A stretch of 19,963 nucleotides of DNA. Source: a virus. Taxonomy: Duplodnaviria; Heunggongvirae; Uroviricota; Caudoviricetes. The DNA lies in IMG/VR virus record IMGVR_UViG_3300025162_000035; one strand, written 5' to 3'. The position numbers and the translations under genes were made by a program. The first letter of the stretch is position 1; every line of letters starts with the position of its first letter. Shown here piece by piece: positions 1 through 17,630 of the stretch. The notes beneath the pieces were generated by a model. That model was not told the origin of the DNA, made no database searches, and was given only the letters and a program-made list of their open reading frames with translations.

Positions 1-267
1 AGTAATTTTTATACACGAAGTGATAATTTTGATATTGATAGAAATAAAAAAAATATAAGAAGCATCGGCAAAATATGTGTGTGTGGAAATACAATAAAAA
101 GCGATTCGATGATGTGTGTTAAATGTAATAATATTTCGCAAAGAAAAGTTGAAAGACCAGAACACTCGATTTTAATTAAAGAAGTTAGTGAGATTGGATT
201 TTTAGCTACTGGGCGAAAATATGGGGTTAGTGATAACTCAATTAGAAAATGGATTAAAAAAGGATAG
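1..267 (+). CDS. C-terminal fragment of a putative phage homing-endonuclease-like protein (Zn-finger plus HTH tail); 5' truncated by window edge
   Basis: Frame open from base 1: ...CVCG...CVKC...RPEHSILIKEVSEIGFLATGRKYGVSDNSIRKW, a tail typical of phage HNH endonucleases. The catalytic domain is not visible. Stop TAG at 265-267. Confidence 0.55.
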   Translation, partial: SNFYTRSDNFDIDRNKKNIRSIGKICVCGNTIKSDSMMCVKCNNISQRKVERPEHSILIKEVSEIGFLATGRKYGVSDNSIRKWIKKG

Positions 268-346
268 GTTGAGCAACTGGCTGGCTCGGAACTCTGTAAA
301 AGTTTTGTCTTTATTGACCTTGGGGGTTCAAATCCCTCCCTATCCA
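262..346 (+). tRNA. trnY: tRNA-Tyr(GUA)
   Basis: Acceptor GGATAGG/CCTATCC, anticodon arm GAACT-CTGTAAA-AGTTT, long variable arm, T-loop TTCAAAT. Confidence 0.92.
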
Positions 347-444
347 CAAAATGCTGGGTCAAAAACAAGTAGGGTCTGCTAACCTGAACGGAGTATGATA
401 TGCAATCTTTAAAGATCAGGATAGCAGTTCTGGTTGGCGAAGTT

Positions 445-516
445 TTTTCTGTGGTGTAGAGGTAGCACGGCTGGCGGATGAGTCAGCAGGGATAAGTTCG
501 AATCTTGTTAGAAATC
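445..516 (+). ncRNA. tRNA-like RNA with non-canonical anticodon loop
   Basis: Acceptor TTTCTG/TAGAAA, D stem GTGT/GCAC, T arm ATAAG-TTCGAAT-CTTGT; anticodon stem GCTGGC/GTCAGC closes a 6-nt loop GGATGA with no U33. Confidence 0.65.
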
Positions 517-628
517 GATGGGGTTGAAGGCGATCAATAGGTCAACCAACGGATAATACCGTAAACCTTAAAGATGAAATCGTTACCATGGATAGAACGA
601 AAGTAATAACGAAGATCAGATATTTTAT

Positions 629-706
629 GTTAGGGTGCCTGAGCGGTCCAAAGGAAATGTTTGCAAAACATTAAAATCGGGGGTTCGAATCCCTTCCCTA
701 ACTCCA
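629..706 (+). tRNA. trnC: tRNA-Cys(GCA)
   Basis: Acceptor GTTAGGG/CCCTAAC, loop TTGCAAA, U73 discriminator, encoded CCA. Confidence 0.95.
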
Positions 707-820
707 GAATGAAGACATGGGTTCAAATCCCACTGTAGGCTTTCCAAAAAAGAACCATAGCACACACGAGGTGTAAGGTATAGCCTATATAGTTTAGATG
801 GGAGAACGTCAATCTTATTA
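707..820 (+). ncRNA. Circularly permuted tRNA-like gene A (3' half before 5' half)
   Basis: 3' half 708-746 (T-loop TTCAAAT, TGTAGGC, CCA) precedes 5' half 783-820 (GCCTATA-TA-GTTT..GAAC). Acceptor strands pair 7/7. Confidence 0.7.
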
Positions 821-821
821 A

Positions 822-1004
822 GTGGTATTTTTTATTAATAGGAGTCTTCGTGAAAGTCGGTCAGAAATTCAAGGCAAAGCATCACAAGAGGATGTGGAAA
901 AAGCTAAAGGAATAAGTGGAAAAGCATTTACAGTAAGTGTTATTTCTGTTGTTATCGTATTACTTGGTTTAATAATCAATTTGGCATTTCATTTCATTAA
1001 GTAA
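822..1004 (+). CDS. Small hypothetical protein with C-terminal transmembrane helix
   Basis: 60 aa, GTG start, hydrophobic stretch AFTVSVISVVIVLLGLIINLAF. Confidence 0.55.
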   Translation: MVFFINRSLRESRSEIQGKASQEDVEKAKGISGKAFTVSVISVVIVLLGLIINLAFHFIK

Positions 1005-1017
1005 ATCAAATTAAAAT

Positions 1018-1108
1018 CCAGATGAAAACGTGGGTTCGAATCCCACTTGGTGGGGCTCCAAAAAAGAAACCCCCGCCTGTCGTTTAGTGGTTCAGGACAT
1101 CATCATAT
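1018..1108 (+). ncRNA. Circularly permuted tRNA-like gene B
   Basis: 3' half 1021-1060 (GATGA, GTGGG-TTCGAAT-CCCAC, GGTGGGG, CCA) precedes 5' half ~1071-1108 (CCCCGCC, D arm GTTT/GGAC, TCATC). TCATC/GATGA pairs 5/5. Confidence 0.72.
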
Positions 1109-1191
1109 GCTGTGTTACGCAAGCGGTCAAAGCAGTATCTCTTTCAAGGATATCCTTAATTGGTTCAGGGGTTCAAATCCCCTACACAGTA
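1109..1191 (+). tRNA. tRNA with Glu(UUC) anticodon and long variable region
   Basis: Acceptor GCTGTGT/ACACAGT, TATCT-CTTTCAA-GGATA, 14-nt variable region, T arm AGGGG-TTCAAAT-CCCCT. Confidence 0.85.
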
Positions 1192-1196
1192 CAATG

Positions 1197-1404
1197 CCCC
1201 TCTTAGCTCAGTCGGTTCAGAGCGTCTGGTTTAGACCCAGAACTTAACATTTTTAGTGAAGGTACCAATAAATCTTGTACAGGGTTTATTGGAAGAATAG
1301 TTAAATCTGCAAGGTAGATGACCCTGAATGTCTTACTAATAGTACTTAATGTAAGAAGATATGGTGTAGTCGAGGAGTCCAAGGTTCGAATCCTTGAGGG
1401 GGGA
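1197..1404 (+). tRNA. tRNA-Leu(UAG)-anticodon RNA with 138-nt insert in variable region
   Basis: Acceptor CCCCTCT/AGGGGGG, D stem GCTC/GAGC, TCTGG-TTTAGAC-CCAGA, T arm CAAGG-TTCGAAT-CCTTG at 1380-1396. Confidence 0.75.
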
Positions 1405-1410
1405 CAAAAT

Positions 1411-1482
1411 GGTGCGTTAGCTTAGTGGTTAGAGTAGCCCCACGTTCAGGGGTTGGCGGGAGTTCGAATCTTTCACGCACCG
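1411..1482 (+). tRNA. Atypical tRNA, GUU (Asn) anticodon, aberrant loop
   Basis: Acceptor GGTGCGT/ACGCACC, G73, GCCCC-ACGTTCA-GGGGT (C33 and C37 instead of U33/purine 37). Confidence 0.7.
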
Positions 1483-1574
1483 CTGTTTGATTTTAATAAG
1501 AAGAATGCTTTCTTAATGGATACAACATGTGAAGGAACCGACCGTTGGTCGAAAGATTAAAATCAAACGATTTT

Positions 1575-1584
1575 TTAATATATA
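1575..1584 (+). promoter_or_regulatory. TTAATATATA motif (putative phage promoter)
   Basis: Same motif recurs just upstream of many start codons on both strands. Confidence 0.5.
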
Positions 1585-1588
1585 TTGT

Positions 1589-1900
1589 ATGAAAATTAAA
1601 CGGTTTAACGAAATATCAGTTGGGCAGCCATGGGATAGTCAAGCGCACAGAGAATTTTCAATTGATATGAGTGTTGTAAAGGCTCACGATAGCACACCAA
1701 ATTATTTATCAATTATTAGAAGTATGATTAGAAAGGGTGAAGGTAAAGTTTGGGTGAATAATATTGAAGGTAATACAGCACACATTAGATCGTGGCAGTT
1801 TGATATTCTTGGTGATGCAACGGTTCCAGTTGAAGCATTAAAAGGTTTTAGTATGAAATCATGGACTACTAATAACGTAGCAAAAAAATTTGATATGTAA
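1589..1900 (+). CDS. Hypothetical protein, MKIKRFNE.../...KKFDM tagged family
   Basis: Start moved to ATG 1589 after the TTAATATATA motif; family N- and C-terminal motifs. Confidence 0.75.
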   Translation: MKIKRFNEISVGQPWDSQAHREFSIDMSVVKAHDSTPNYLSIIRSMIRKGEGKVWVNNIEGNTAHIRSWQFDILGDATVPVEALKGFSMKSWTTNNVAKKFDM

Positions 1901-4759: not shown

Positions 4760-5788
4760 CAAAGAAACACAGGTTGTTGGTTTACAATTATTATAAAATT
4801 TTTCATTCATACTTTTATTATATTGAAAAGAAATATAATCATTTTCTTCACAGTATTTTTCTAATGATTCTTTTTTGGGTATAATTGTTTTATAATAATA
4901 ATCCCATTTCCTTTGTAAATCTTTATTAGATATTATTGTCTTACATTCAACAATATAAATTCCTTGTGTTGTTGTTATTTTGAAATCTGGGTTATATTTT
5001 TTGGTTATACCATCAATTACAAAATTTATTAAAAAATTACATCTTTCTATATTTAAAACTACAAAATTTTTCTCAAAGTAATTCAAACAACTATATTCAA
5101 CTTTAGAATCACATCTTATTAATTTATCCTTGTATTTATAGCGGCATTTTATACTTTTTAATTTTGGTTTAAATATGCCATCTTTTATTTTATTGCTCAC
5201 AAGTTTAGATAAATTTTCTTTTATTTCTTTTGTCATTGAACCTTTTGATGCACAACTAACACTACAATATTTTTGTTTATTTCTTCTTACCCATTTAGAT
5301 TTGTATTCTTTATGACAGTATTCACAATTTTTTTCAACATATTTTGGATTTGTGTTTTTTATAGTCTTTATTTTAATTTTTTTATTTTCAAATCTTTTTT
5401 TAGATGCACAACTAACACTACAAAATTTCCTATGCCTGACACTCCATTTTAATTCAAATTCTGAATTACAATATAGACACACTTTTTTAATTGTATCTGG
5501 TAAGCCTTTTTTTAAAGTGATTCTAATTTTATTTTTTGTTTTTTCTGGCATTTTTTTATTTTTATTAGTTTTTGATGCAGAACAAGACATCGAACAAAAA
5601 GTATTCCTTCTTTTATCATATTCAATTATATTTGAACAATTTAAACATAATTTTGGTTTTTTATTATAAATATCTATTCTATTTTTTTTAAGAACTTTTA
5701 TTTTCTCTAAAGATTTTTGGTTAGCCTTTTTATTATTTTCGAAAATTTTACCAGATTTATAATAATCCGAATTTTTAATACTTGCCAT
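4757..5788 (-). CDS. Putative free-standing endonuclease: three Cys4 Zn-binding repeats plus C-terminal TnsA-like PD-(D/E)XK domain
   Basis: Three CxxC...F/YCSxSC repeats; C-terminal RCDSKVE...YNPDFKI...YIVECK. Confidence 0.7.
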   Translation of the reverse strand: MASIKNSDYYKSGKIFENNKKANQKSLEKIKVLKKNRIDIYNKKPKLCLNCSNIIEYDKRRNTFCSMSCSASKTNKNKKMPEKTKNKIRITLKKGLPDTIKKVCLYCNSEFELKWSVRHRKFCSVSCASKKRFENKKIKIKTIKNTNPKYVEKNCEYCHKEYKSKWVRRNKQKYCSVSCASKGSMTKEIKENLSKLVSNKIKDGIFKPKLKSIKCRYKYKDKLIRCDSKVEYSCLNYFEKNFVVLNIERCNFLINFVIDGITKKYNPDFKITTTQGIYIVECKTIISNKDLQRKWDYYYKTIIPKKESLEKYCEENDYISFQYNKSMNEKFYNNCKPTTCVSL

Positions 5789-6952: not shown

Positions 6953-7022
6953 TGAGAAAATGCCAACAGGAACGTAACCAACAACGGGCTTGAACCGTGA
7001 AACATCAACTGGCATTTTCTCA
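6953..7022 (+). ncRNA. Divergent member of the ACAGCAA anticodon-stem-loop ncRNA family
   Basis: 13-bp outer stem TGAGAAAATGCCA/TGGCATTTTCTCA, ACAGGAA motif, inner hairpin ACGG-GCTTGAA-CCGT. Confidence 0.5.
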
Positions 7023-7029
7023 CCTATAA

Positions 7030-7141
7030 GGGATTATAGTTTAATGCACCTATAACGGGATTCCAAAAAAGATGAAAGGGGTGTAGGTAGAATTCTGGGG
7101 CGCATAACCCAGCGATATGGGTTCGAGTCCCATTGCTCCCG
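7030..7141 (+). tRNA. Atypical CAU-containing (initiator-like) tRNA with enlarged D loop
   Basis: Acceptor GGGATTA/TGCTCCC (6/7), CTGGG-GCGCATAA-CCCAG, T arm ATGGG-TTCGAGT-CCCAT, ~47-nt D-loop region. Confidence 0.55.
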
Positions 7142-8913: not shown

Positions 8914-8981
8914 AGGATTGAAGGATACACACAGCAACTAAAAAAACTTGACTGTCAATCAAACAACACGTATCCTGTTCT
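8914..8981 (+). ncRNA. ACAGCAA-family ncRNA copy 1, Asp(GUC) anticodon loop
   Basis: AGGATAC/GTATCCT stem, ACAGCAA, TTGA-CTGTCAA-TCAA. Confidence 0.75.
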
Positions 8982-8990
8982 TAAAAAATT

Positions 8991-9060
8991 GAGGATAAAG
9001 AATACCTACAGCAATTAAAAAACTTGTCTGCAAAACAAACCAATGCGTATTCTGTTTCTC
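8991..9060 (+). ncRNA. ACAGCAA-family ncRNA copy 2, Cys(GCA) anticodon loop
   Basis: AGAATAC/GTATTCT stem, ACAGCAA, TTGT-CTGCAAA-ACAA. Confidence 0.75.
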
Positions 9061-9754: not shown

Positions 9755-9827
9755 TGAGATTAAAGAAAACTTACAGCAATTCACAAAAATTTGACTCTTA
9801 ATCAAACCAATCAGTTTTCTGTTCTCA
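9755..9827 (+). ncRNA. ACAGCAA-family ncRNA copy 3, Lys(CUU) anticodon loop
   Basis: AGAAAAC/GTTTTCT stem, ACAGCAA, TTGA-CTCTTAA-TCAA. Confidence 0.75.
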
Positions 9828-12866: not shown

Positions 12867-12943
12867 GCCTCACTATTGGCCCAGTTTTCGAAACTGGAGA
12901 CGCATAACGGATGAAAATGTGGGTTCGAATCCCTCGTGAGGTA
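12867..12943 (+). ncRNA. tRNA-like element with replaced D/anticodon region
   Basis: Acceptor GCCTCAC/GTGAGGT, T-loop TTCGAAT; centre is hairpin CCAGTTT-TCG-AAACTGG plus a poorly paired CGCATAAC. Confidence 0.55.
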
Positions 12944-16964: not shown

Positions 16965-17630
16965 ATGATTCTTAAATTAACATTATCCAAAAATACTAAA
17001 ATCGTACCTTTCAATTATGCTATTCTGATTAGAGGTAAACGCCAAGGGTGGCTTGGAAACCAAGATAGGAATAAAATATCGTTATTTACATTTTCTAATA
17101 TATTAGGTGGAATATCAACTCCAAATGGATACAATTTTCCAAATGGTGGTGAAATTTATTTCGGTTATCACGATAAAACAGATATTATAAATATTATTTT
17201 AGCCATAGTAAAAAATAATAATTTTATTTGTGGCATGAAAATTATAAATTTTATTCCTGTAAATTATAATTCAATAACTACGGATGATTTTATCTGTTTA
17301 TCCCCAATTCATTTAGCAAAAAAATCAATTGGTTGGAATTCAAAAAATATACCAGTAACATATAAACATCCAGATAGTAATGTAATATTACAGGATACGA
17401 TGATACGAAAAATGCAAGCTGCTGGTGTTAATAGCAATTATTTTGACATTCAGTTTGATTTATCGGATAATACAAAATATATTAGCTCTATTTCTTATGA
17501 CGATAAAATAATAAAATATAGTGTTTGCTCACTTATCATAAAGGGTACCTCTCAGCAAAAGGAATTTTGTGTGAATGCGGGTGTTGGAAAATCAACAGGA
17601 ATGGGATTTGGATGTGTTTTACCTAAATAA
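16965..17630 (+). CDS. cas6: CRISPR-associated endoribonuclease Cas6
   Basis: C-terminal glycine-rich loop AGVGKSTGMGFGCV; LFTFSNI motif; 221 aa. Confidence 0.88.
   Translation: MILKLTLSKNTKIVPFNYAILIRGKRQGWLGNQDRNKISLFTFSNILGGISTPNGYNFPNGGEIYFGYHDKTDIINIILAIVKNNNFICGMKIINFIPVNYNSITTDDFICLSPIHLAKKSIGWNSKNIPVTYKHPDSNVILQDTMIRKMQAAGVNSNYFDIQFDLSDNTKYISSISYDDKIIKYSVCSLIIKGTSQQKEFCVNAGVGKSTGMGFGCVLPK

What the first reader, a model, noticed from the sequence alone, without database searches (positions are those of the whole stretch)
707..820. Circularly permuted tRNA gene A, broken at the anticodon loop
Seen: directly after the Cys tRNA CCA comes a tRNA 3' half (AATGA, T arm, TGTAGGC, then TTTCCA). 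After a ~36-nt spacer comes a 5' half (GCCTATA, U8-A9, D stem GTTT/GAAC, TCAAT-CT). The acceptor pairs 7/7 with an extra A-T pair. Established: permuted tRNA genes are known from some algae and an archaeon, and bacteria have permuted tmRNA. I do not know of them as a routine phage feature. Inference: processing could give a circular intermediate and a ligated tRNA, or a two-piece tRNA mimic already open at the anticodon and so immune to anticodon nucleases.
Basis: partly seen in the sequence, partly recalled or inferred. Interest (0 to 1): 0.88.

Follow-up and report, generated by a model that had tools for sequence, protein, structure and literature searches.

The report
Back-to-front tRNA look-alike in phage
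A huge freshwater phage carries, inside its tRNA gene row, a small RNA gene with every part of a tRNA except the anticodon loop, laid out in swapped order; it is most likely a tRNA mimic of a kind already known from bacteria and phages, not a working tRNA gene.

Summary
Window 707-814 encodes, directly after tRNA-Cys, a T arm and a 3' acceptor strand. A 41-nt cap follows, then the matching 5' acceptor strand, a D arm and a strand that pairs back to 707-712.

All the nucleotides that build the tRNA elbow are present. There is no anticodon loop. The 'CCA' lies two unpaired bases beyond an 8-bp helix and belongs to a 12-mer, TCCAAAAAAGAA.

That 12-mer recurs exactly in a second unit (B, 1021-1104). 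It recurs with one change in a hairpin loop inside another tRNA (7062).

A and B are the window's only orphan T arms. Five of their nine acceptor-helix pairs differ by compensatory changes. A third unit lies about 1.1 kb upstream.

Related huge phages carry clusters of such units between tRNAs. One of these scores as YrlA, the bacterial Y RNA-like tRNA mimic, below Rfam's threshold. No Ro60 gene was found in five of those phages.

My best reading (0.55) is a permuted tRNA-mimic RNA with YrlA-type topology, possibly cut by RNase P into two pieces. A true permuted tRNA gene is unlikely (about 0.1).

This scan has reported similar permuted tRNA mimics many times on other DNA. No orthologue of A and no RNA data were found.

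The parts
629..706 (+). tRNA-Cys(GCA) with encoded CCA. Its 3' end abuts unit A, so it probably sets the 5' end of A.
   Evidence: ARAGORN. Rfam tRNA 56 bits. Only 2 of the 17 tRNA genes checked in the window carry CCA after the discriminator.
707..712 (+). 5' strand of the closing stem (GAATGA), the counterpart of the 3' strand of an anticodon stem.
   Evidence: Pairs with 809-814 in 5 of 6 positions. The same columns pair in unit B.
713..733 (+). 4-nt variable loop (AGAC, with C716 at the position of C48) and the T arm (ATGGG / TTCAAAT / CCCAC).
   Evidence: Sequence. Orphan T arm. Aligned to the T arm of B by the covariance model.
734..741 (+). 3' strand of the acceptor-like helix (TGTAGGC plus T741).
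   Evidence: Pairs 7/7 with 783-789, plus T741-A782. The helix forms in the minimum-energy fold. Five compensatory pairs against B.
742..781 (+). Cap of the acceptor-like helix. It holds the 12-mer TCCAAAAAAGAA (743-754) and a small inner hairpin (754-779).
   Evidence: The 12-mer is exact in A and B and has one change at 7062. Six matches at up to one mismatch against 0.83 expected. Inner hairpin from the fold.
782..789 (+). 5' strand of the acceptor-like helix (A782 plus GCCTATA). The predicted RNase P site is 5' of G783.
   Evidence: Complementarity. The cleavage site is inferred by analogy with M. smegmatis YrlA.
790..808 (+). U8 and A9, the D arm (GTTT / AGATGGGA / GAAC, with A14, G15, G18, G19 and A21) and G26.
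   Evidence: Sequence. Canonical spacing confirmed by my structural scan.
809..814 (+). 3' strand of the closing stem (TCAATC).
   Evidence: Pairs with 707-712. The downstream bases CTTATTA AGTGG (814-825; C814 belongs to both readings) could form a weaker alternative anticodon-like arm with 4/5 pairs.
1021..1104 (+). Unit B, the sister of A in the same order. Its parts are closing stem GATGA/TCATC, T arm, a 9-bp acceptor-like helix, a 15-nt loop with the same 12-mer, and a D arm. It ends 4 nt before the next tRNA (1109).
   Evidence: Its minimum-energy fold is the permuted cloverleaf. Structure-guided alignment with A.
7048..7088 (+). Hairpin ACCTATA/TGTAGGT inside the D loop of the tRNA at 7030-7141. 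Its loop holds TCCAAAAAAGAT. The stem is nearly the sequence of A's acceptor helix.
   Evidence: The helix appears in the centroid fold.

Best explanation
Unit A (707-814) is a gene for a small non-coding RNA that copies the body of a tRNA in circularly permuted order. This is the T-arm, capped acceptor helix, D-arm topology of YrlA-type Y RNA-like RNAs.

Inferred pathway:
- It is transcribed with the surrounding + strand tRNA row.
- 3' maturation of tRNA-Cys frees its 5' end at G707.
- It folds into an L shape through the usual tRNA tertiary contacts.
- It has no anticodon loop, so it cannot decode.
- Its acceptor-like helix (8 bp) is capped by a loop carrying a conserved A-rich 12-mer.

Because the helix has the 7-bp length that RNase P measures, the cap is probably cut 5' of G783. 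That would give a two-piece RNA held together by base pairing, as shown for Mycobacterium smegmatis YrlA.

I infer that it works by occupying a protein that recognises the tRNA elbow or the acceptor/T minihelix, as a scaffold, decoy or sponge. The A-rich loop would be a second binding site.

Shown: the anatomy, a sister copy with compensatory changes, a third copy in the same phage, and analogous units in related phages. Inferred: transcription, processing, the partner and the function.
For: Anatomy and significance:
- Anatomy as listed; 11 of 20,000 shuffles reach it.
- These tertiary-contact nucleotides are present: U8, A14, G15-C48, G18, G19, A21, G26, G53-C61, T54, T55, C56 and A58 (read).

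Signs of selection:
- Sister unit B folds as the permuted cloverleaf.
- A and B share the T, D and closing stems and an exact 12-mer, yet 5 of 9 acceptor-helix pairs differ on both sides. 93% of cells pair, against 56% or less when the partner strand is slid.
- Neither half of A or B has a close full-length parent tRNA in the window. The best match of A's 3' half is B's 3' half.
- A and B are the only orphan T arms.
- A third permuted unit, with an 8-bp capped helix, lies in the same phage right after another CCA-ending tRNA-like sequence that ARAGORN did not call.

Relatives:
- Three related phage contigs (two of them identical over this stretch) carry three tandem permuted units between tRNA-Gln and tRNA-Trp.
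- The middle unit matches Rfam YrlA over the full model at 41.9 bits, E 6.5e-7.

Precedent:
- YrlA with a 7-bp acceptor stem is cut by RNase P and ends in CCA in vivo (Chen et al. 2014, PMC4201824).
Against: - No orthologue of A was found. Seven metagenome copies are identical or differ by one base, and five related genomes hold no sequence match. Conservation therefore rests on paralogues and analogues.
- The Rfam YrlA model does not hit A or B at E up to 10.
- There is no long terminal stem, no GNCGAA motif near A or B, and no Ro60/TROVE gene in the window or in five related phages.
- A's own fold energy is not unusual (z -1.1).
- There are no expression or processing data.
Confidence: 0.55

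Rival explanations
1. A is a genuine circularly permuted (or split) tRNA gene. The precursor is cut at both ends of the closing stem and in the cap. The anticodon-side ends are joined by the phage RNA ligase. The result is a decoding tRNA, for example Ile-UAU read from the bases CTTATTA after 813.
For: - Complete tRNA body with a 7-bp acceptor helix.
- ARAGORN calls tRNAs from many in-silico joins.
- One end of each unit is defined by a neighbouring tRNA: G707 follows the tRNA-Cys CCA, and B ends 4 nt before the tRNA at 1109.
- A Cas6-like RNA endonuclease domain lies at 16965-17627.
Against: - No fixed junction gives a canonical loop. The called anticodon changes with the junction, and position 37 would be U.
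- B has only ATAT after its stem.
- The CCA is displaced by two unpaired bases from helices of 8 and 9 bp, and is part of a 12-mer that also sits in a D-loop hairpin.
- The third unit has no CCA.
- No bulge-helix-bulge pairing can form, because the leader is the tRNA-Cys 3' end.
- Bacteria have no tRNA splicing endonuclease (established knowledge).
- The window already holds a tRNA-Ile(UAU).
Confidence: 0.1
2. A is a decayed remnant: two tandem copies of one tRNA that lost the 5' part of the first copy and the 3' part of the second. It has no function.
For: - Tandem near-identical tRNAs with 60-70-nt spacers exist in a huge phage, LR756504.1. Their junctions score even higher with my model (34.5 bits).
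- The bases after A's 5' half look like a leftover anticodon arm (CTTATTA AGTGG).
- 'NCCA plus an A tract' is a common tRNA gene trailer in bacteria.
Against: - Two units would need matching deletions that end exactly at tRNA borders.
- There is no close parent tRNA, so any remnant would be old. Yet 19-20 of 21 canonical stem pairs survive in each unit, with 5 compensatory pair changes between A and B.
- The 12-mer is identical while the stems have diverged.
- None of the window's ordinary tRNA trailers has the 12-mer.
- Analogous units are kept in related phages.
Confidence: 0.1
3. A and B are cis-acting processing or stability signals. They would be tRNA-shaped RNase P sites that punctuate the long transcript and leave the 783-1060 piece, with its 60-codon ORF, carrying structured ends. 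On this reading they have no role of their own as RNAs.
For: - A and B bracket a 200-nt stretch holding one ORF (822-1004) with a hydrophobic C-terminus.
- Both have RNase P-like acceptor/T stacks.
- tRNA-like punctuation is established elsewhere, in mitochondria and in MALAT1/mascRNA (from memory).
Against: - The ORF has no homologue in 5.8 billion proteins other than itself.
- It has no convincing ribosome-binding site.
- The interval is not structured (z 0.22).
- The third unit and the units in relatives do not flank ORFs.
Confidence: 0.15

Closest known systems
YrlA (Y RNA-like A, Rfam RF02553), especially Mycobacterium smegmatis YrlA (Chen et al. 2014, PMC4201824; structure in Wang et al. 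2018, bioRxiv 10.1101/312249)
   Same: - Same gene order: T arm, capped acceptor-like stem, D arm, closed by pairing of the two ends.
- Conserved tRNA elbow nucleotides.
- Occurs in phages.
- The M. smegmatis RNA has a 7-bp acceptor stem, is cut by RNase P into two halves, and ends in CCA.
   Different: - No long terminal stem with the Ro60-binding GNCGAA motif.
- No Ro60/TROVE gene nearby or in five related phages.
- No Rfam hit to A.
- The closing stem is only 6 bp and is flush with a neighbouring tRNA.
- The cap carries an A-rich 12-mer.
Permuted tRNA genes of Cyanidioschyzon merolae and some green algae (from memory: Soma et al. 2007, Maruyama et al. 2010). The only paper on them that I opened from the search results is PMC3673656.
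   Same: The 3' half precedes the 5' half. The two are separated by an intervening sequence at the acceptor ends.
   Different: - Those precursors carry the whole anticodon loop and a bulge-helix-bulge motif at the junction.
- They are circularised by the eukaryotic/archaeal splicing endonuclease and ligase.
- Here there is no definable loop, no such motif, and a bacterial host.
Two-piece (circularly permuted) tmRNA genes of alpha-proteobacteria and some cyanobacteria (from memory)
   Same: A bacterial precedent for the order: acceptor piece with CCA, intervening segment, then 5' acceptor strand. The mature RNA is in two pieces.
   Different: ARAGORN finds no tmRNA. A has no tag reading frame, no pseudoknots and no G3:U70.
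'Double tRNA-mimic RNA beside DUF7873', reported repeatedly by earlier agents of this scan on other genomes (e1-2703945, e1-1852722 and others; unpublished AI notes)
   Same: Two permuted tRNA-like domains, with CCA after the 3' acceptor strand, within about 340-430 nt. Often inside phage tRNA clusters and without Ro60. From the start of A to the end of B is 402 nt.
   Different: - No DUF7873 hit among the ORFs I scanned.
- The 200 nt between A and B is unstructured.
- I could not compare sequences with that family.

Membership tests
YrlA (RF02553) | Match to the Rfam covariance model at or above the gathering score (69 bits) | tested here: not met
   No YrlA match on window 1-1700 at E up to 10. 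A unit in related phages reaches 41.9 bits, also below threshold.
YrlA (RF02553) | tRNA-like domain in the order T arm, acceptor-like stem-loop, D arm | tested here: met
   The elbow nucleotides are present.
YrlA (RF02553) | Long terminal stem with the Ro60-binding motif GNCGAAN0-1G | tested here: not met
   The closing stem is 6 bp and abuts tRNA-Cys. There is no GNCGAA between 442 and 1547.
YrlA (RF02553) | Encoded next to a Ro60/Rsr (TROVE) gene | tested here: not met
   No TROVE hit among the window ORFs scanned. None in five related phage records, three of them at least 98% complete. The phage's own full genome was not available.
Permuted tRNA gene (algal/archaeal type) | Joined halves give a cloverleaf with one defined 7-nt anticodon loop | tested here: inconclusive
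   ARAGORN calls a tRNA at 219 of the 472 junction pairs tried for A and B. Among the calls listed, all for A, the anticodon changes with the junction. The sequence defines no unique loop.
Permuted tRNA gene (algal/archaeal type) | Bulge-helix-bulge motif formed by leader and trailer at the junction | tested here: not met
   The leader is the 3' end of tRNA-Cys. Beyond G707-C814 only A706-U815 could pair.
Permuted tRNA gene (algal/archaeal type) | Circular intermediate and a ligated mature tRNA | not testable with these tools
   No RNA run was listed for this DNA.
Ordinary tRNA (RF00005) | Rfam tRNA model at or above 29 bits | tested here: not met
   No tRNA match over 707-820 at gathering or at E up to 10.
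Two-piece tmRNA | tRNA-Ala-like acceptor with G3:U70, a tag reading frame and pseudoknots | tested here: not met
   ARAGORN with tmRNA search finds none. A has C3-G70.

The most novel reading that the evidence does not exclude
A (with B and the upstream unit) is a true permuted or split tRNA gene of a bacteriophage. The halves would be released by tRNA-processing enzymes, or by the phage's Cas6-like endonuclease, and sealed by the phage RNA ligase. That would be a virus-encoded tRNA cut-and-rejoin pathway in bacteria. It could also handle the odd insertions seen in other tRNA genes of this phage.
Probability: 0.08. Interest if true: 0.9.

Novelty: new variant of a known kind. Interest (0 to 1): 0.5.

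Why it matters
Phage tRNA rows are usually read as codon-usage or anti-defence tRNA supplies. Here the row also holds tRNA bodies that cannot decode.

If these are Ro60-independent tRNA mimics, they point to a still unknown tRNA-binding partner, from host or phage. They also extend the Y RNA-like class to a minimal form: no Ro60-binding stem, borders flush with real tRNAs, a 7-bp RNase P-type helix and an A-rich cap.

The shared 12-mer gives a concrete handle for pull-down or mutation experiments.

In practice, tRNA finders miss these units. Covariance models confuse them with the junctions of tandem tRNAs.

Tried and rejected
- RNA evidence: no RNA holder was listed for window 200-1600, so no read mapping was done.
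- Whole genome: none is held for this window.
- Close relatives: seven contigs carrying the neighbouring 182-aa protein are identical or differ by one base, so they give no covariation.
- Synteny: homologues of that protein (55% identity or less) lie on 614-640 kb phage contigs but not beside tRNA rows.
- Pattern 'T loop plus TCCAAAAAAGAA' in IMG/VR: 0 hits.
- Looser pattern in IMG/VR: 51 hits, all ordinary tRNA 3' ends.
The 80 loci (83 matches) that I examined are all ordinary tRNA ends followed by terminators, and the window's own contig was not among them.
- LR756504.1 (636 kb phage): my model hits only junctions of tandem complete tRNAs. It also lacks the 182-aa protein, so it is not a close relative.
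- Models R1 and R2 over 12 related IMG/VR records: apart from the three-unit cluster in G005, G006 and G010, all hits are tRNA junctions or interrupted tRNAs.
- Direct sequence search for A in five relatives: nothing.
- The 60-codon ORF between A and B: no homologue.
- My hand-written structural scanner is too permissive at scores of 18 or less. I used it only with strict settings.
- Pairing between the units and the three ACAGCAA 'anticodon-loop' elements (8914-9060, 9755-9827): by eye I found only a low-complexity U-run/A-run match, and dropped the idea.
- I could not look up the Pfam accession of DUF7873, so relatives were not searched for it by family.

Full report
**What is there.** The window comes from a huge phage of freshwater metagenomes.
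- Identical or one-base-different copies lie on contigs from several lake samples.
- The nearest homologues of a neighbouring protein, at 55% identity or less, sit on phage contigs of 614-640 kb.
- Positions 262-1483 are a + strand row of tRNA genes.

Directly after the CCA of tRNA-Cys (704-706) the sequence runs as follows:
- GAATGA 707-712.
- A 4-nt variable loop, 713-716.
- A T arm, 717-733.
- The 3' acceptor strand TGTAGGC, 734-740.
- T, TT, then CCA at 744-746.
- 36 further bases.
- The 5' acceptor strand GCCTATA, 783-789.
- TA.
- A D arm GTTT/GAAC with an AGATGGGA loop, 792-807.
- G.
- TCAATC, 809-814.

The acceptor strands pair 7/7, and A782-T741 adds an eighth pair. 809-814 pairs with 707-712 in 5 of 6 positions.

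**Is it more than chance?** Yes, on three tests.
- I kept the 3' half fixed and shuffled the 159 nt downstream. Only 11 of 20,000 shuffles offered a partner with a 7/7 acceptor, canonical spacing, a 4-bp D stem and at least 4/5 closing pairs.
- A covariance model built from the sister unit B alone finds A as the best other hit in the window (24.1 bits, E 7e-6). tRNA-tRNA junctions score 18.6 bits or less.
- A and B are the only well-paired + strand T arms that are not inside a normal-order tRNA.

These nucleotides that build the tRNA elbow are present: U8, A14, G15 with C48, G18, G19, A21, G26, G53-C61, and T54-T55-C56 with A58 (read).

The fold energy of A alone is unremarkable, and its minimum-energy structure keeps the acceptor helix but not the whole cloverleaf. 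B's minimum-energy structure is exactly the permuted cloverleaf.

**Signs of selection inside this genome.**
- A and B share near-identical T, D and closing stems and an exact 12-mer, TCCAAAAAAGAA, at the start of the cap.
- Their acceptor-like helices have diverged almost completely while staying paired. Five of nine pairs changed on both sides. 93% of cells pair, against 56% or less with the partner strand slid.
- Neither half of either unit has a close full-length parent among the window's tRNAs.
- A third permuted unit lies about 1.05-1.14 kb upstream of the window start (L001:13501-13590, minus strand). It has a long variable arm and an 8-bp acceptor-like helix with a plain 9-nt loop. It again comes just after a tRNA-like sequence (not called by ARAGORN) that ends in CCA.
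- The 12-mer recurs, with one change, in the loop of a hairpin inside the D loop of the tRNA at 7030-7141. That hairpin's stem is nearly A's acceptor helix.

**Why it is probably not a tRNA gene.**
- No 7-nt anticodon loop is defined. A's closing stem begins at the first base after tRNA-Cys, and B has four bases between its stem and the next tRNA.
- ARAGORN accepts the joined halves at 219 of the 472 junction pairs tried for A and B. Among the calls listed, all for A, the anticodon changes with the junction.
- In both units the CCA lies two unpaired bases beyond a helix that is too long, 8 bp in A and 9 bp in B. It belongs to the conserved loop 12-mer, which also sits in a D-loop hairpin where no 3' end can be.
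- The third unit has no CCA.
- Only 2 of the 17 ordinary tRNA genes checked here encode CCA.
- No bulge-helix-bulge can form at the junction, and bacteria lack the splicing endonuclease that matures algal permuted tRNAs.

**Relatives.** I found no orthologue of A. Using the 182-aa neighbour family, I reached 12 IMG/VR records of related large phages and searched them whole with my models.
- Three records (G005, G006, G010) carry three tandem permuted units in a gap between tRNA-Gln and tRNA-Trp. ARAGORN leaves that gap empty.
- G005 and G006 gave identical scores, coordinates and tRNA calls over this stretch, so they count as one sequence.
- The first unit shares 21 of 23 bases with B across the variable loop and T arm.
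- The middle unit matches Rfam YrlA over the whole model (41.9 bits, E 6.5e-7, below the 69-bit gathering score).
- Five of these records, three at least 98% complete, have no TROVE (Ro60) gene.
- All other model hits were junctions of complete or interrupted tRNAs. This shows how easily tandem tRNAs imitate the signal.

**Best explanation and mechanism.** A is a permuted tRNA-mimic RNA with the topology of YrlA, the bacterial and phage Y RNA-like tRNA mimic (Chen et al. 2014, PMC4201824).

I infer the following pathway. A is made from the tRNA precursor. Maturation of tRNA-Cys frees its 5' end, and it folds into an L shape. Its 7-bp-plus acceptor helix stacks on the T stem, so RNase P probably cuts it 5' of G783. 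That would give two pieces that stay paired.

This is what was shown for M. smegmatis YrlA, the one YrlA with a 7-bp acceptor stem. That RNA also ends in CCA.

The likely role is to occupy a protein that reads the tRNA elbow or acceptor end. The A-rich cap would be a second contact. The partner is unknown. I hold this reading at about 0.55.

**Rivals.**
- A real permuted or split tRNA sealed by the phage RNA ligase, about 0.1. An earlier scan note places an RNA ligase and a CCA-type enzyme about 37 kb away. I did not re-test that.
- Decayed remnants of tandem tRNAs, about 0.1.
- Purely cis-acting RNase P punctuation around the small ORF 822-1004, about 0.15. Against this: the ORF has no homologue and the interval has no structure.

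**Comparison and novelty.** The kind is known: tRNA mimics in permuted order, including in phages. This scan has reported similar units many times on other DNA.

Membership in YrlA proper fails on the model score, the Ro60-binding stem and the Ro60 gene. It therefore works like a YrlA tRNA domain but is not a recognisable member.

The variant features are:
- the minimal closing stem, flush with real tRNAs;
- the RNase P-length helix;
- the conserved A-rich 12-mer cap, shared with a D-loop insert;
- the absence of any Ro60 gene in the relatives searched.

Interest is moderate.

Noticed in passing
L001:13501-13590 (minus strand; about 1.05-1.14 kb upstream of window position 1): Third permuted tRNA-like unit of the same phage. 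It has closing stem GGGC/GCCC, a long variable hairpin, a T arm, and an 8-bp acceptor-like helix with a 9-nt loop and no CCA. It starts 2 nt after a tRNA-like sequence (not called by ARAGORN) that ends in CCA.
   Followed up: partly
window 12867-12943; L090-L095: tRNA-like genes with only 7-8 nt between the acceptor and the anticodon arm. After the anticodon arm comes a conserved extra segment of about 20 nt (ACGCATAACGGATGAAAAT-type). The same design, with Arg anticodons (TCG, TCT, CCT), occurs on six unrelated IMG/VR contigs, so it is a conserved odd tRNA family.
   Followed up: partly
L090, minus strand, just after its tRNA-Arg-like gene (about 4990-5050): Another phage contig has a permuted tRNA-like unit directly after that odd tRNA. 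Read by eye: closing stem TCGGT/ACCGA, a T arm, a short capped helix, and a D arm TCAT/ATGA.
   Followed up: no
L229:1501-1816 (also L230, L231): Three tandem permuted tRNA-like units between tRNA-Gln and tRNA-Trp in related phages. The middle one is a sub-threshold YrlA match. No TROVE gene in those genomes.
   Followed up: partly
window 16965-17627 (+): A 221-aa protein with a Cas6 C-terminal domain (Pfam E 4.4e-10). This is an RNA hairpin endonuclease fold in a phage region full of odd small RNAs. I did not check the window for a CRISPR array.
   Followed up: no
window 1197-1405 (+): ARAGORN calls a tRNA with anticodon TTA (it would read the TAA stop codon) interrupted by a 134-nt insert at position 37. 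No Rfam intron family matches.
   Followed up: no
L233:2185-2345: In the closest related contig (G001), a tRNA missed by ARAGORN is interrupted by about 100 nt holding an A-rich loop (AAAAAGAAAAAA on an ACGT stem) and a TACAGCAA motif. The same ACAGCAA occurs in the three small elements at window 8914-9060 and 9755-9827.
   Followed up: no
window 822-1004 (+): A 60-codon ORF between units A and B, with a hydrophobic C-terminal stretch. No homologue other than itself and no clear ribosome-binding site. It may not be a gene.
   Followed up: partly
window 7021-7063: The stretch CACCTATAA-GGGATT is directly repeated. One copy spans the 5' leader and acceptor start of the tRNA at 7030. The other lies inside its D-loop insert, just before the TCCAAAAAAGA motif.
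   Followed up: no
window 445-516 (+): Weak tRNA (Rfam 34 bits). At a lowered threshold ARAGORN gives it a four-base anticodon (GATG).
   Followed up: no
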